Positions 28,363 to 33,953 of a stretch of DNA of 64,000 nucleotides are shown piece after piece; within the stretch, counting starts at the first letter, position 1, and every line of letters begins with the position of its first letter. The notes under the pieces are model-generated. The model was not told the origin of the DNA, did not search any database, and worked only from the letters and a program-made list of their open reading frames with translations. The position numbers were made by a program, and so were the translations under genes. Source of the stretch: Rickettsiales bacterium (GTDB taxonomy: Bacteria; Pseudomonadota; Alphaproteobacteria; Rickettsiales; UBA8987); contig JAHDCD010000001.1 of assembly GCA_020630095.1 (NCBI GenBank), positions 5,698 through 69,697 of the forward strand. Direction: 5' to 3'.

Positions 28363-30801
28363 GTGACTAAAGACACTATAAAAATATTCTTCGTTGATGA
28401 TCAGCCTCGGGTTCAAAATAATTATATGGAAGAGGTTAAGGATGTATTATCAAGGGAAAATATTAATTTTGAGTATCAGATATTTTCTGGTGCCAGAGCT
28501 TTGTCTCAGGAATTAGAGAAAATTCACTCTGAGGGAGGGGGGTTACCGGATTCCGTTATGATTGATTATATTTTTGGAGGTAACGAAGTGGGTCTTAATG
28601 TTGCCCAAACGATGCTTGATCCAAAGTTTGAGGGAAGTCTGCATGAAGAGTTTTATCAAGATATTGAGTGGTTTATGTGTACCTCTTCGTCAAGGCGTGT
28701 AAATGAATCGCCATTGATACAGAGTTTAAATTGGGGAAGGTATGAAGGTGAAAGATGCATTAATAAGGAGGAGTTTGTAACACTTCTTCGATCTTTCAGT
28801 AAAAAGCCTAAAGAAATGTTTCCTTTGTTATCTTACTTTAACTATGCGCTTGATTTAGGTATTAAACCTAGAGATGCAGAAATTGAAGGGGCTGAAGGTG
28901 ATAAAAATGTTGAAGCTTTAAATAACTTTAAGGTTGGACCTAACATGGGGGATACAGCTATGCAGCTTGATCCTGATAGTCTTAGAGAGAGTTTAACCCC
29001 GAGTTATAAAAATTTAGATAATGATCCTAAATTTTTTAGATTTAGAAAATTTTCAACTGATCCAATAAGGGGTAAGCTTTGTTTTAACTCTGAAGATATA
29101 GAATCAGCTCTTAATTCAGAGGATAAGGCTATTATAGTTCTACAAAGCTTTAATGAATCGGAATTGGATTTAATTAATAATGCGGATGGTGTTGTGGTTA
29201 TTGGCTCAGGTAGTTCTCATGCGCTAGAGATATTAAGGGCATTGAATAAGCCATATGTTACTGATTTACAAGATTATGATTATAAAAAGAAGGATGGCGG
29301 TTTAGGTTTTTACCCATGTGCTAGGGTTGATACTATTGATGGAGAATTGGCCTTAATAAGTATGGATCATAGAGTTAGTAGGGCAATTGGAAATTATATT
29401 TCTGGGAAAGCTGAAGCTATTGATATTGATTATGAGGGAGCTTCGGATGATTATTATTTAACAGCTGGAAATGCAGTTACCTTAGTTAGTGGAGATTTAG
29501 TTTCTACGGAAGTTGAGATAGATAATTCTTATGCAAATGATGAGTTTGTAGAGAGGCTATTAGATTTTACTATTTATACTAAATATTTATGTAAGGGGGT
29601 AAGGGTTTCGGCAGCAGTTGATAGTGCTGATGTATTGCCTGAAGTTTTTGAAAGTACTTTGGATATAGGATTAATAAGATCTGAGCATTTAATTTTGGGA
29701 GATGATACCGTTGGAGTAAAGCAGCTACTTAAAGAAATAATTTTAAGTGAAGAGGGGGTATCTGAGGATCAAGGAAATAGATTAAAAGAAGAGTTATCTA
29801 CCTCTGTGGAAGGTCTGTTTGAGGCTGTTAAGATGGAGTATAATGGAAAATTTAATATAAGGCTTTTTGATTTAACTTTAGATGATTTTTTTACACAGCA
29901 AGAAATTGAGGAGATTCATGCTCGTTATGGTGAGCAAGGAGTTAATGGAACTCAACTAGCTAATCAGATTGAGGGGCTTTATGAGGCACAAATAGATGTG
30001 TTGATGTTAAATTTTATTAAAGCTCATGGACAAAATCTTAGTAGTAATGCCTATGAATCTGAGAATAAGGATTATAATAGGGATGCATTTGATGACTTGC
30101 AGAGGTCTGAAATGAGCGTAATGTTGCCGCATGTTAAAACAGCTGAAGACGTTGTTAGATATAAAGAATATGCTAAGAACTCAATGGAAAAGGCTATGAA
30201 GCAGGAAGAGAATAGCTATGAAGTGAGTTTTATTAAACGTGAAAAGTGTCTTGATAGTATTGAAGGGTATGAGCCTCCGTATAAGTTTGGGGCGATGGTA
30301 GAAACATTGGAGGCTTGTGAAAATATTGAAGATATAGCAAGAGAATGTGATTTTATTAGTATTGGAGCTAATGATTTAACTTCGGCGGTTCTTGGTATTG
30401 CCAGAAACGATATTGAGGCAATTAGAGATTATCAATATGAAAATGATGGCCTTAATCCATTTGAAACTCTTTGTCCTGAGGTGAAGGAGAGAATTAAAGA
30501 TATTTATACTAGAGCTAAAGCGGCTAATCCTGATCTTGAGATTAACTTATGTGGTCGTCAAGGGGCGGATATTGAGGCCATAAAAGTCTTGGATGAAATT
30601 GGTTTTGACTCTGTTTCTGTTGATGCTGAAAAGAGTGTATTTATTCCAGCATGTGTTGAAGCATTGCAGTATCATATTCAAAAAAAGAAGTTGCAAGAAG
30701 AGGGGAAGGGAGGGGGCTTGTCTGAGCAGTCTTCAGCTCCTAATCCTCAGCAATGCTATAAAGGTAATTCTTTTCCTAAAGGGGTGAATCAGAGGCAATA
30801 A
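28363..30801 (+). CDS. Receiver (REC)-like domain fused to a PPDK-like phosphohistidine swivel domain and PEP/pyruvate-binding TIM barrel; no ATP-grasp domain
   Basis: REC pattern: FVDDQ (D12/D13), VMIDYIFGGNEVGL (D68), FMCTSSS, CINKEEF (K135). Swivel: VVVIGSGSSHALEILRALNKPYV (H286). Barrel: IGLIRSEH, NIRLFDLTLDDFF, MLPHVKTAEDV, GAMVETLEA...DFISIGANDLTS...RND, LCGRQGADIEAIKVLDEIGFDSVSV. GTG start. Confidence 0.65.
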   Translation: MTKDTIKIFFVDDQPRVQNNYMEEVKDVLSRENINFEYQIFSGARALSQELEKIHSEGGGLPDSVMIDYIFGGNEVGLNVAQTMLDPKFEGSLHEEFYQDIEWFMCTSSSRRVNESPLIQSLNWGRYEGERCINKEEFVTLLRSFSKKPKEMFPLLSYFNYALDLGIKPRDAEIEGAEGDKNVEALNNFKVGPNMGDTAMQLDPDSLRESLTPSYKNLDNDPKFFRFRKFSTDPIRGKLCFNSEDIESALNSEDKAIIVLQSFNESELDLINNADGVVVIGSGSSHALEILRALNKPYVTDLQDYDYKKKDGGLGFYPCARVDTIDGELALISMDHRVSRAIGNYISGKAEAIDIDYEGASDDYYLTAGNAVTLVSGDLVSTEVEIDNSYANDEFVERLLDFTIYTKYLCKGVRVSAAVDSADVLPEVFESTLDIGLIRSEHLILGDDTVGVKQLLKEIILSEEGVSEDQGNRLKEELSTSVEGLFEAVKMEYNGKFNIRLFDLTLDDFFTQQEIEEIHARYGEQGVNGTQLANQIEGLYEAQIDVLMLNFIKAHGQNLSSNAYESENKDYNRDAFDDLQRSEMSVMLPHVKTAEDVVRYKEYAKNSMEKAMKQEENSYEVSFIKREKCLDSIEGYEPPYKFGAMVETLEACENIEDIARECDFISIGANDLTSAVLGIARNDIEAIRDYQYENDGLNPFETLCPEVKERIKDIYTRAKAANPDLEINLCGRQGADIEAIKVLDEIGFDSVSVDAEKSVFIPACVEALQYHIQKKKLQEEGKGGGLSEQSSAPNPQQCYKGNSFPKGVNQRQ

Positions 30802-30832
30802 AAAAGCCCCGAAATTAGCGAGGCTTTTTAAG

Positions 30833-30858
30833 GAGATTCCCGCCTGCGCGGGAATGAC
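30833..30858. repeat. Single-hairpin copy of the GTCAT/ATGAC palindromic element family
   Basis: GAGATTCCCGC ctgc GCGGGAATGAC, in the convergent intergenic gap. Confidence 0.55.
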
Positions 30859-32510: not shown

Positions 32511-33953
32511 ATGGAAAAACTATCTGCTAAATATAATATAATCTGGTTGCGTAATGACCTTAGAATAGCAGATAATCCTGCGCTTTACCACGCATTTAAG
32601 GATGCTGAGCAAGAAGAATGCGAAGTTTTGCCTATATTTATATTAGATGAGGCTAATGAGCGAGCGCTTGGTGGAGCGTCTAAATGGTTTTTGCATAAGG
32701 CGCTGAAGGCATTGGAGGGTAAGCTTGGTAAGATTCATTATTTTGAGGGTGATGCTATAGATATAATAGAACAGCTTAAGGTAAGCTTGGGCGATGTTAG
32801 TATCTATTATAATAGAAAATATACTGCTGAGGCGATTTCGCGTGATACTGAGATTAAGGAGCGTTTTAATGCGCTATCATTTAATGGTTCGCTATTATTT
32901 GAGCCGTGGGAAATACAGAATAAGCAGGGCAGTTATTATAAGGTGTTTACTGCATTTTGGCGTGCGTGCATGGAGAATGAGGTTAGGCCTTGCTATGATT
33001 CTAATTTTGTCATTCCTGCGCAGGTGGGAATTTCCTTTAAGGAGCTTCCCGAGATTCCCGCTTCCGTGGGGATGACAACCCTTGAAGGTTTGAATCTTTT
33101 ACCAACTTCGCCAGATTGGTCTGGCGGTTTTGATTACGAGGTTTCAGAAGAATATGCCAATGATAGGCTAGAATATTTTTTAGAAGAAAAGGTTGATGAG
33201 TATAAAGAAGGGCGGAATTTTCCTGATAAAGATATTACATCCAAGCTTTCGCCATATTTAGCGTGGGGTGTTATATCACCAAGGCAAGTATATTGGAAAA
33301 CTGTATATAAAACAGCTGGTAAGCCTGAATCTTCAGCTAAAGATATTGAGCAATTTTTGTTTGAAATTGGTTGGCGCGAGTTTTCGTATCATTTGCTTTA
33401 TAATAACCCTGAACTTGCATGGAGAAATTTTAGACCAGATTTTGATAATTTTCCTTGGCAAAAGAATGATGAATTGCTTGAAGTATGGAAACGTGGGCAG
33501 ACGGGATATCCTATAGTGGATGCCGGTATGCGTGAGTTATGGCATACAGGTTGGATGCATAATAGGGTGCGCATGATAGTGGCATCTTTTTTAACGAAAC
33601 ATTTGCTTATTCATTGGAGTGAGGGCGAGAAATGGTTTTGGGATTGCTTAACTGATGCGGATTCTGCGAGTAATTCAGCATCATGGCAGTGGGTTGCGGG
33701 TTGCGGGGCGGATGCTGCACCATATTTCCGAATATTTAATCCTATAACGCAAGGCGAGAAGTTTGATAAAACCCGTGCTTACGTTAGAAAATGGGTGCCA
33801 GAAGTTGCTGATTTACCTGATGATTTAATTTATCGTCCGTGGGAGGCTTCACCAATGTTTAAGCCTAAAGATTACCCAGCGCCGATAGTGGAGCATTCCC
33901 AAGCCCGTGAACGTGCTTTACTTGCTTATGAGGCGATTAAGAAGAAGGATTAA
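32511..33953 (+). CDS. phrB: Deoxyribodipyrimidine photolyase (class I CPD type)
   Basis: IIWLRNDLRIADNPAL; FEIGWREF; TGYPIVDAGMRELWHTGWMHNRVRMIVASFLTKHL; SASWQWVAGCGADAAPYFRIFNP. Confidence 0.9.
   Translation: MEKLSAKYNIIWLRNDLRIADNPALYHAFKDAEQEECEVLPIFILDEANERALGGASKWFLHKALKALEGKLGKIHYFEGDAIDIIEQLKVSLGDVSIYYNRKYTAEAISRDTEIKERFNALSFNGSLLFEPWEIQNKQGSYYKVFTAFWRACMENEVRPCYDSNFVIPAQVGISFKELPEIPASVGMTTLEGLNLLPTSPDWSGGFDYEVSEEYANDRLEYFLEEKVDEYKEGRNFPDKDITSKLSPYLAWGVISPRQVYWKTVYKTAGKPESSAKDIEQFLFEIGWREFSYHLLYNNPELAWRNFRPDFDNFPWQKNDELLEVWKRGQTGYPIVDAGMRELWHTGWMHNRVRMIVASFLTKHLLIHWSEGEKWFWDCLTDADSASNSASWQWVAGCGADAAPYFRIFNPITQGEKFDKTRAYVRKWVPEVADLPDDLIYRPWEASPMFKPKDYPAPIVEHSQARERALLAYEAIKKKD
33009..33076. 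mobile_element. 68-bp double-hairpin palindromic element (GTCATTCC...GGGGATGAC) in-frame within phrB (codons ~167-189)
   Basis: GTCATTCCTGCGCAGGTGGGAATTTCCTTTAAGGAGCTTCCCGAGATTCCCGCTTCCGTGGGGATGAC aligns along its whole length with the intergenic copy at 61811-61880. It encodes VIPAQVGISFKELPEIPASVGMT. Confidence 0.6.

What the first reader, a model, noticed from the sequence alone, without database searches (positions are those of the whole stretch)
33009..33076. Palindromic double-hairpin element inserted in-frame in the photolyase gene (RPE-like behaviour)
A 68-bp segment of phrB aligns end to end with the intergenic 70-bp element at 61811-61880. The shared layout is GTCATTCC, hairpin 1, GGGAAT, spacer, GAGATYCCCG, hairpin 2, GGGGATGAC. 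It encodes ~23 extra residues (VIPAQVGISFKELPEIPASVGMT) without breaking the frame. The position corresponds to the long inter-domain loop of class I photolyases, between the alpha/beta and helical domains in the E. coli PhrB structure, where an insertion is likely to be tolerated. In-frame colonisation of protein genes by selfish palindromic repeats is established for Rickettsia palindromic elements. This appears to be an analogous but sequence-distinct family.
Basis: partly seen in the sequence, partly recalled or inferred. Interest (0 to 1): 0.6.

Follow-up and report, generated by a model that had tools for sequence, protein, structure and literature searches.

The report
REP hairpin pair inside photolyase gene
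A 68-bp selfish double-hairpin DNA repeat sits in frame in a flexible loop of a photolyase gene of an uncultured alphaproteobacterium; the repeat belongs to a known, cosmopolitan family (the unit of Neisseria dRS3/NTS and Rickettsia RPE-6), so the event is real but of an already documented kind.

Summary
Window 33009-33076 is a true copy of a dispersed repeat. A profile built without it or its twin scores it E = 5e-14. The genome (1.6 Mb, 37% GC) has 70 loci of the family, 58 of them full length. Twenty lie inside real genes, 19 of which have Pfam support (FolP, Era, MnmE, UvrC, Acs, TrmD and others).

The family is not new and is not distinct from the Rickettsia elements. Each arm is a (C/T)GTC tag, an 8-bp stem beginning AT, a 4-5 nt loop and a short tail. 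That is the CGTC-1/-2 REP type of Di Nocera 2013, equated there with neisserial dRS3 and R. conorii RPE-6, whose in-gene copies encode the same peptides. It is also the NTS/SRM motif cut as ssDNA by Ssn GIY-YIG nucleases (Chenal 2025). This genome has three hairpin-bracketed ssn-like genes and no RAYT, IS110 or TnpB.

In PhrB, a class III-like photolyase, the 23 element-coded residues fall in the inter-domain loop. This is the only low-confidence stretch of a pLDDT 94.7 model. The loop is only about 10 residues longer than in 119 homologues, so about 13 native residues were lost. The copy is among the most decayed.

Verdict: new member of a known kind, modest interest.

The parts
32511..33953 (+). 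Host gene: CPD photolyase (480 aa; PF00875 + PF03441), closest to class III PhrA of A. tumefaciens
   Evidence: ORF; Pfam domains and homologues; PDB 4u63 at E = 5e-118; Foldseek TM 0.88. It has the consensus residue in all 53 columns that are invariant across the 120 aligned sequences (itself included).
33009..33076 (+). REP/SRM dimer core (68 bp; 70 bp with the flanking T33008 and A33077 that complete the TGTC tags). Translated in frame as residues 167-189, VIPAQVGISFKELPEIPASVGMT.
   Evidence: independent profile E = 5e-14; T at -1 and A at +1 in 47 of 50 full copies.
33009..33035 (+). Left unit: tag (T)GTC, stem 33012-33019 ATTCCTGC, loop 33020-33023 GCAG, stem 33024-33031 GTGGGAAT, tail TTCC. 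It carries three C-to-T changes against the family consensus, including the C that follows the palindrome.
   Evidence: Sequence; family copies; pair counts; importance of that C for SsnA binding in PMC11893778.
33032..33053 (+). Spacer between the two hairpins (subtype TTCCTTTAAGGAGCTTCCCGAG), shared with the commonest in-gene copies.
33051..33076 (-). Right unit, read on the minus strand: GTC tag 33076-33074, stem 33073-33066, loop 33065-33062, stem 33061-33054, tail CTC. It is the ATCCCCGC-type unit with two stem changes plus one in the loop.
   Evidence: match 33054-33076 on the minus strand.
61811..61880 (+). Intergenic twin: an intact dimer (ATTCCCGC-GAAA unit plus ATCCCCGA-CTTGA unit) with a different spacer subtype.
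   Evidence: 68.7 bits; DNA fold -17.7 kcal/mol, z = -5.0, as two separate hairpins.
61778..61923 (.). Larger palindromic shell around the twin (36-nt outer arms, 81% complementary). About 141 bp is present in three 99-100% identical copies in the genome.
30820..30858 (-). Solo left-type unit (GTCATTCCCGCGCAGGCGGGAATCTCC...) in the spacer after the gene that ends near 30801.
   Evidence: (32.6 bits, E = 4e-9, profile positions 1-40).

Best explanation
The segment is an inverted dimer of two (C/T)GTC-tagged REP hairpins, of the CGTC-1 type. This is the same unit as neisserial dRS3/NTS and Rickettsia RPE-6, and it is the class of 'Ssn-related motifs' recognised as single-stranded DNA by small GIY-YIG Ssn nucleases. 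It is a non-coding, selfish repeat that spread to about 70 places in this 1.6-Mb genome.

One copy landed in the DNA that encodes the variable inter-domain loop of a class III-like photolyase. It survived there for three reasons: in that reading frame the element has no stop codon, the net length change is a multiple of three, and the loop tolerates foreign residues. The gene now makes a photolyase in which about 13 native loop residues are replaced by 23 repeat-encoded ones.

Shown: family membership, copy number, in-frame position in real genes, loop location, decay of this copy, and the presence of three hairpin-bracketed ssn-like genes.

Inferred: that the protein is functional; that the insertion was followed or accompanied by a deletion; and that spread depends on Ssn-type cleavage of hairpins in ssDNA. 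The last is hypothesised in the literature and not demonstrated. No function of the insert for the cell is needed to explain it.
For: Family membership:
- Independent nhmmer profile gives E = 5e-14.
- The genome has 70 loci, 58 full length.
- The exact heterodimer pattern is found in more than 119 stretches of genomes from many phyla.
- The unit is patchy among relatives, present in 15 of 41 genomes at 0-57 copies, with a reversed-pattern control of 0.

Anatomy against the published definitions (PMC3733652):
- TGTC tag: T at -1 in 47 of 50 copies.
- 8-bp stems beginning AT, and 4- or 5-nt loops.
- Tags outward, as in the R. conorii dimers SFLRKQES...LDSRFRGND.
- The left arm matches NTS CGTCATTCCCGCGMAVGCGGGAATCYRG.

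In-gene behaviour:
- 20 internal copies; 19 hosts have Pfam domains.
- Full in-gene copies are nearly all 68 bp (15 of 17), while the others range from 67 to 77 bp, as expected from a frame filter.

PhrB:
- The loop is 46 aa against a mode of 36.
- The AF2 model has pLDDT 94.7, with its only weak stretch at residues 161-180.
- The insert maps into the loop region of 1dnp and 4u63.

Decay of this copy:
- 12 of 16 Watson-Crick stem pairs against a mean of 15.1.
- DNA fold of -13.6 (+) and -9.2 (-) kcal/mol against -17.7 and -19.2 for intact copies.

Enzyme context:
- No Y1_Tnp, IS110 or TnpB.
- Three GIY-YIG ORFs of about 95 aa, each bracketed by inverted (C/G/T)GTCAT hairpins.
- In relatives the same architecture recurs, and one gene is flanked by the exact ATCCCCGC-GAAG unit.
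- Genomes with the unit have an ssn-like gene in 14 of 15 cases, against 13 of 26 without it (Fisher p = 0.006, not corrected for phylogeny).
Against: - No empty site is available. The best PhrB relative is only 51-55% identical, so the insertion boundaries, any target duplication and the supposed deletion of about 13 residues are all inferred from a variable loop.
- No ssn-like gene in this genome is flanked by the exact ATTCCCGC or ATCCCCGC units. The flanks are ATTGCGAG type (two genes) and ATTCGCCGA-CTTGA type (one gene).
- Ssn nucleases have been shown to cut, not to transpose, and in Neisseria only 2% of NTS lie in genes.
- The tail is CTC here, not the CCA or CYRG of the published consensus.
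- Expression and activity of this PhrB were not tested.
Confidence: 0.88

Rival explanations
1. The element is a classical MITE: a deletion derivative of an insertion sequence whose transposase recognises the GTCAT...ATGAC terminal inverted repeats. It has no connection with Ssn nucleases.
For: It has terminal inverted repeats, a size of about 70 bp and a dispersed distribution. Three identical copies of a larger 141-bp palindromic shell suggest recent movement.
Against: There is no target-site duplication in the flanks; only the T...A that complete the tags. No Y1, IS110 or TnpB gene is present. The arms are self-folding hairpins identical to published REP/NTS units, not plain TIRs. Other transposase families (DDE types) were not searched.
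Confidence: 0.07
2. The in-gene copies are kept because they do something for the cell. For example, they might serve as Ssn cleavage sites that limit recombination or transformation of housekeeping and repair genes. Alternatively the mRNA hairpin or the peptide might modulate PhrB.
For: In-gene copies are as intact as intergenic ones (15.1 of 16 pairs in both classes). In Neisseria, NTS/SsnA modulates transformation (PMC11893778). All four stem changes of the phr copy leave G-T/G-U wobble pairs on the sense strand.
Against: The phr copy itself is among the most decayed, and its left arm has lost the C that is most important for SsnA binding in Neisseria. Transitions are the commonest mutations in any case. 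Elements have no more open frames than random genomic 68-mers (1.88 against 1.88). Insert positions are variable loops or domain borders, as expected for mere tolerance.
Confidence: 0.04
3. The similarity is fortuitous, and the 23 residues are the native loop of this lineage's photolyase.
For: The loop is variable in sequence and length among photolyases.
Against: The independent profile gives E = 5e-14. Both hairpins, tags and spacer are collinear with the family. No homologue among 119 has such peptides. The same peptides recur in 19 other proteins here.
Confidence: 0.01

Closest known systems
CGTC-tagged REPs, families CGTC-1 and CGTC-2 (Di Nocera, De Gregorio and Rocco 2013, BMC Genomics 14:522, PMC3733652)
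   Same: A CGTC tag (TGTC variant here), 8-bp stems beginning AT, 4-nt (CGTC-1) or 5-nt (CGTC-2) loops and a 3-nt tail. Units are mostly organised as inverted dimers with 20-100 bp spacers. The families predominate in Alphaproteobacteria. Some copies lie in frame inside genes, often DNA-repair genes, and encode 20-30 aa. No flanked transposase is known.
   Different: The tail is CTC instead of the usual CCA. Most dimers here are heterodimers of an ATTCCCGC unit with an ATCCCCGA-CTTGA or ATCCCCGC unit. This lineage was not in that survey. I could not read the paper's Figure 2 consensus or its definition of HH and TT dimers.
NTS / Ssn-related motifs and SsnA GIY-YIG ssDNA nucleases (Chenal et al. 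2025, Nat Commun 16:2388, PMC11893778)
   Same: The family consensus left arm matches the NTS consensus at 25 of 28 positions. The genome carries small single-domain GIY-YIG genes bracketed by inverted hairpins (the SRM-ssn-SRM layout). The paper names Rickettsia, Wolbachia and Devosia as SRM-rich.
   Different: In N. meningitidis only 2% of NTS lie in genes, against 29% of loci here. No ssn gene here is flanked by exactly these two units. Cleavage was not tested. That paper does not treat in-frame insertions.
Rickettsia palindromic elements (Ogata et al. 2000, 2002): RPE-6 and RPE-1
   Same: In-frame insertion into housekeeping genes of a small-genome alphaproteobacterium. RPE-6 is the same hairpin unit according to PMC3733652, with identical encoded peptides. 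UvrC and phosphomannomutase are hosts in both organisms.
   Different: The classic RPE-1 is 100-150 bp and unrelated in sequence. The copies here are 68-bp heterodimers. R. conorii sequences were not aligned here; only the published peptides were compared.
REPINs and BIMEs with RAYT transposases (GTAG-tagged REPs)
   Same: Inverted doublets of tagged hairpins, dispersed in tens to hundreds of copies and thought to move as ssDNA hairpins.
   Different: The tag is (C/T)GTC, not GTAG. No RAYT (PF01797) is present in the genome.

Membership tests
CGTC-1 REP (PMC3733652) | Terminal tetranucleotide CGTC (TGTC or CCTC variants allowed) at one end of each unit | tested here: met
   GTC is invariant in the units. 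The base before it is T in 47 of 50 full copies, and on the other end A follows GAC in 47 of 50. The phr copy reads T33008-GTC and GAC-A33077.
CGTC-1 REP (PMC3733652) | 8-bp stem with A and T in the first two positions; 4-nt loop (5-nt in CGTC-2) | tested here: met
   ATTCCCGC-GAAA/GAAG/GCAG-GCGGGAAT, ATCCCCGC-GAAA-GCGGGGAT and ATCCCCGA-CTTGA-TCGGGGAT. DNA folding gives two separate 8-bp hairpins in intact copies.
CGTC-1 REP (PMC3733652) | Short unpaired 3-nt tail, mostly CCA | tested here: inconclusive
   A conserved tail exists but reads CTC. The hairpins that flank ssn-like genes here and in relatives do end in CCA.
CGTC-1 REP (PMC3733652) | Mostly inverted dimers; no dedicated flanked transposase | tested here: met
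   58 of 70 loci are full dimers. No Y1_Tnp, IS110 or TnpB is present.
NTS / SRM of Ssn nucleases (PMC11893778) | Match to CGTCATTCCCGCGMAVGCGGGAATCYRG, including the oriented flanks | tested here: met
   The family consensus left arm TGTCATTCCCGCGAAAGCGGGAATCTCC matches 25 of 28 positions. The phr copy matches 22 of 28 and has lost the C after the palindrome. (My count.)
NTS / SRM of Ssn nucleases (PMC11893778) | An Ssn homologue (single-domain GIY-YIG of about 95 aa, cd10448) in the genome, itself flanked by SRMs | tested here: met
   Three ORFs match PF01541 at E = 3e-15 to 4e-12. Each is bracketed by inverted tagged hairpins. Assignment to cd10448 could not be made because no CDD is available. 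NCBIfam gave no informative match: one sub-threshold hit for one of the three proteins and none for the other two.
NTS / SRM of Ssn nucleases (PMC11893778) | Binding and cleavage of the motif as ssDNA by the cognate Ssn | not testable with these tools
   This needs purified protein and oligonucleotides.
Rickettsia RPE-6 | Same repeat unit as the R. conorii element | tested here: inconclusive
   The equivalence CGTC-1 = RPE-6 is stated in PMC3733652. The published R. conorii in-gene peptides VIPAKAGI, CHSRESGDP and DSRFRGND equal those here. No R. conorii DNA was aligned.
REPIN / RAYT system | GTAG tag and a RAYT (Y1 HUH transposase) gene | tested here: not met
   The tag is TGTC. PF01797 is absent from the genome, while the control genomes score.

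The most novel reading that the evidence does not exclude
Ssn-type GIY-YIG nucleases may be the enzymes that actually spread CGTC-tagged REP dimers, including the RPE-6 type in-frame insertions of Rickettsia-like bacteria. This small genome would then be a natural system where that spread is recent or ongoing. It has three hairpin-bracketed ssn genes, five hairpin sub-families, 20 in-gene copies as intact as the intergenic ones, and a 141-bp composite present in three identical copies. The literature only hypothesises mobility for SRM-ssn-SRM and does not connect it with protein-coding insertions.
Probability: 0.3. Interest if true: 0.6.

Novelty: new member of a known kind. Interest (0 to 1): 0.27.

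Why it matters
In itself this adds one more gene, and one more uncultured alphaproteobacterial lineage, to the list of proteins decorated by palindromic repeats. Annotation pipelines should recognise the VIPAxxGI / IPAxxGMT / CHSRExGN / DSRxRGND peptides as repeat-derived.

Its wider value is as a data point that links two literatures. The 'orphan' CGTC REPs and RPE-6 elements that insert in frame into genes are the same hairpins now known to be targets of Ssn ssDNA nucleases. If Ssn enzymes move them, this would explain how Rickettsia-type protein-coding palindromes arise.

The PhrB case also shows loop-length compensation: 23 residues in, about 13 out. That bears on how proteins absorb such insertions.

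Tried and rejected
- RAYT (PF01797), IS110 (PF01548) and TnpB (PF07282) searches of the whole genome were all negative.
- I looked for an empty site in three ways. No same-genus genome exists in the reference set of one genome per species. No protein above 55% identity was found, either among 5.8 billion proteins (best 51%) or in 41 related genomes (best 55%). No copy of the outer 141-bp palindrome lacks the nested dimer.
- I tested whether the element is specially 'coding-compatible'. Mean open frames per copy equal those of random genomic 68-mers, so this idea was rejected.
- I tested whether in-gene copies are systematically weakened or wobble-biased. They are as intact as intergenic copies, so the decay of the phr copy is a property of that copy only.
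- I searched the 119 loci from other genomes for ssn genes next to exact dimers and found only one hit, without flanking units. This was uninformative.
- Net insertion sizes from PDB alignments of MnmE, TrmD and Cmk range from about +6 to +30 aa. The sites are too variable to define a fixed insertion length.
- The first AF2 run, with 17 sequences, was poor (pLDDT 67). It was replaced by a run with 120 sequences.
- The definition of HH and TT dimers could not be found in the text of PMC3733652, so I describe the orientation only as 'tags outward'.
Full report
**Observation.** Window 33009-33076 reads GTCATTCCTGCGCAGGTGGGAATTTCCTTTAAGGAGCTTCCCGAGATTCCCGCTTCCGTGGGGATGAC. It lies inside a 480-aa ORF (32511-33953, +) that is a photolyase (PF00875 + PF03441). 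It aligns end to end with the intergenic 70-mer at 61811-61880, with 52 identical positions in 71 columns. The half-site pattern occurs five times in the window against 0.01 expected. A profile built from 30 other genomic copies, leaving out this copy, the twin and the twin's two duplicates, scores the phr copy at 48.3 bits, E = 5e-14. The translation of the segment is VIPAQVGISFKELPEIPASVGMT, residues 167-189.

**The family in this genome.** The window is C13:5698-69697 of a 1.60-Mb, 37% GC, 13-contig genome. A strict pattern finds 34 full double-hairpin copies of 67-75 bp. nhmmer finds 70 distinct loci, 58 of them full length.
- The consensus is T-GTC-ATTCCCGC-GAAA-GCGGGAAT-CTC, then about 15 nt, then GAG-ATCCCCGA-TCAAG-TCGGGGAT-GAC-A. 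In a minority of copies the right arm is ATCCCCGC-TTTC-GCGGGGAT.
- The base before GTC is T in 47 of 50 copies, and the base after GAC is A in 47 of 50. No direct repeat is visible in the flanks.
- Intact copies fold, as single-stranded DNA, into two separate 8-bp hairpins at -17.7 to -19.2 kcal/mol, z about -5.

**In-gene copies.** Thirty loci lie in open frames of 90 aa or more. Twenty are internal to ORFs of 190 aa or more. Nineteen of the 20 hosts have Pfam domains:
- folate, riboflavin, thiamine and isoprenoid synthesis: FolP, RibBA, ThiL, polyprenyl synthase;
- GTPases and tRNA/rRNA modification: Era, RsmG, MnmE, TsaB, MiaA, TrmD;
- DNA repair: UvrC, PhrB;
- other metabolism: Cmk, acetyl-CoA synthetase, phosphomannomutase;
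- transport: an HlyD-type adaptor, an ABC-F protein, an ABC ATPase;
- a prohead protease.

The twentieth host, a 1045-aa ORF, was not scanned. All three frames of both strands are used. The recurrent peptides are VIPAKAGIS...EIPAFAGMT, CHSRESGNL...EIPDQVGDD, CHPRLDRGSRE...GDSRLRGND and SFPRRRES. Full in-gene copies are almost all 68 bp (15 of 17), while other copies range from 67 to 77 bp with a mode of 70. This is what a reading-frame filter on survivors would give. Stem integrity is the same in and outside genes, at 15.1 of 16 pairs. The elements have no more open frames than random genomic 68-mers.

**What it is.** Di Nocera, De Gregorio and Rocco (2013, PMC3733652) defined CGTC-tagged REPs.
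- Organisation and distribution: mostly arranged as inverted dimers, and predominant in Alphaproteobacteria.
- Equivalences: CGTC-1 is equated with neisserial dRS3 and with R. conorii RPE-6.
- Enzyme: the authors state that these repeats 'apparently lack a dedicated transposase'.
- In-gene copies: their supplementary list for R. conorii gives VIPAKAGI, CHSRESGDP, DSRFRGND, SFPRKRES and WIPAFTGMT, plus dimers of the form SFLRKQES...LDSRFRGND. The hosts include UvrC and phosphomannomutase. These are the peptides, and two of the host genes, seen here.

The family is therefore not 'sequence-distinct' from Rickettsia palindromic elements. It is the RPE-6/dRS3 unit. It differs only from the long RPE-1.

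Chenal et al. (2025, PMC11893778) then showed three things. The oriented motif CGTCATTCCCGCGMAVGCGGGAATCYRG (NTS) is bound as single-stranded DNA and cut a few nucleotides upstream by SsnA, a 94-aa single-domain GIY-YIG nuclease. ssn genes are typically bracketed by such motifs. Rickettsia, Wolbachia and Devosia are rich in them. The consensus left arm here matches NTS at 25 of 28 positions.

**Distribution.** They came from Inquilinus, Devosia, gammaproteobacterial MAGs, Patescibacteria, Planctomycetia, Nitrospirales and others, with GC from 34 to 73%. Among 41 relatives of the same family and order, the ATTCCCGC unit is patchy: 15 genomes have it, at 1-57 copies, and the reversed control pattern scores 0 everywhere. 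This is the pattern of a mobile, horizontally spreading repeat.

**Enzyme context in this genome.** No RAYT, IS110 or TnpB gene is present, while the control genomes score. Apart from UvrC there are three GIY-YIG ORFs of about 95 aa. Each is bracketed by inverted tagged hairpins:
- two by ATTGCGAG-type units, of which the genome has 97;
- one by GTCATTCGCCGA-CTTGA-TCGGCGAAT-CCA, of which the genome has 11. This unit shares tag, loop and layout with the right arm of the element.

In relatives, ssn-like genes are found in 27 of 41 genomes. At least 11 of the 30 fetched loci show (C/T)GTCAT-hairpin-CCA units beside the gene, and one has the exact ATCCCCGC-GAAG unit. Genomes with the ATTCCCGC unit carry an ssn-like gene in 14 of 15 cases, against 13 of 26 without it (Fisher p = 0.006; Spearman rho 0.56; not corrected for shared ancestry). 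I take this as an independent, partial confirmation of the published association. Earlier notes of this scan had also raised it. Whether Ssn enzymes move the repeats remains a hypothesis.

**The photolyase.**
- Closest structure. The closest solved structure is the class III CPD photolyase PhrA of A. tumefaciens (4u63: E = 5e-118 by sequence; TM 0.88 and 43% identity by fold). E. coli PhrB (1dnp) is more distant.
- Location of the insert. In both alignments the element-coded residues fall in the poorly conserved linker between the alpha/beta domain and the helical domain. From my own knowledge of the 1dnp structure, this linker spans roughly residues 132-203 in E. coli.
- Structure model. An AlphaFold2 model made with 120 homologues has mean pLDDT 94.7 and pTM 0.93. 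Its only weak region is residues 161-180 (block means 70 and 55; 171-175 below 50), and residues 156-183 are coil.
- Conservation. The protein has the consensus residue in all 53 columns that are invariant across the 120 aligned sequences, itself included, so it is probably functional. This is an inference.
- Loop length. The stretch W149-L196 is 46 aa here, the longest of 120 sequences. The range is otherwise 32-43 with a mode of 36, and family- and order-level relatives agree. So 23 repeat-coded residues stand where relatives have about 13 unrelated ones, a net gain of about 10. Either a deletion accompanied or followed the insertion, or the ancestor had an unprecedentedly short linker. The first option is more likely. 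Similar non-clean net changes are seen in Cmk (about +6), TrmD (about +30) and MnmE (about +24 to +27).

**Age of the phr copy.** It is one of the two most decayed full copies, with 12 of 16 Watson-Crick stem pairs. All four stem changes are transitions that leave G-T wobbles on the sense strand. It folds at -13.6 kcal/mol (z = -2.7) on the sense strand and at -9.2 kcal/mol (z = -0.7) on the other. The C after the left palindrome is T here. In N. meningitidis that C is the base most important for SsnA binding. The simplest reading is an old insertion eroding under AT-biased mutation. I see no evidence that it has been recruited for a function.

**Limits.**
Insertion boundaries and mechanism are therefore inferred.
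- R. conorii DNA was not aligned.
- Membership of the GIY-YIG genes in cd10448 could not be tested.
- DDE-type transposases were not searched.

**Verdict.** This is a new member of a known kind, and interest is modest.

Noticed in passing
window 61778-61923: The intergenic twin is nested in a larger palindrome (36-nt outer arms, 81% complementary). About 141 bp of this composite occurs in three 99-100% identical copies (C13:67478, C8:101578, C1:49860), which suggests recent movement or conversion of a composite element. No copy of the shell without the nested dimer was found.
   Followed up: partly
window 30820-30858 (minus strand): A solo left-type unit (GTCATTCCCGCGCAGGCGGGAATCTCC...) lies just after the stop of the gene ending near 30801. 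This is the typical REP position at a gene's 3' end.
   Followed up: no
G000 C13:128492-128827, C1:3149-3505, C2:117072-117386 (outside the window): Three GIY-YIG (ssn-like) genes of about 95 aa are each bracketed by inverted (C/G/T)GTCAT hairpins. The flanking hairpin types are themselves dispersed in the genome: 97 ATTGCGAG-type units and 11 ATTCGCCGA-CTTGA units.
   Followed up: partly
G000 C13:75030-75096 and C5:48869-48937 (outside the window): Phosphomannomutase (repeat at aa 135-157 of 473) and UvrC (aa 500-523 of 621) carry the element. R. conorii phosphomannomutase RC0657 (aa 146-153 of 462) and UvrC RC0864 (aa 438-446 of 639) carry the same repeat type according to PMC3733652. The phosphomannomutase sites may coincide.
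   Followed up: no
G000 C4:41899-44914 (outside the window): Four full copies are spaced about 1 kb apart (41899, 42972, 43921, 44847), the last inside an HlyD-type gene. This is a local cluster of elements.
   Followed up: no
window 32511-33953: The photolyase is closest to the class III CPD photolyase of A. tumefaciens (4u63), not to class I E. coli PhrB. Its best homologue in public data is only 51-55% identical, in keeping with a genome that is the only species of its genus in the reference set.
   Followed up: yes
relatives G006 and G022: G006 has 56 ATTCCCGC units and 11 ssn-like genes. G022 has 57 units, mostly as homodimers of about 106 bp, but only 2 ssn-like genes. Dimer architecture and enzyme copy number therefore vary strongly between related genera.
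   Followed up: no
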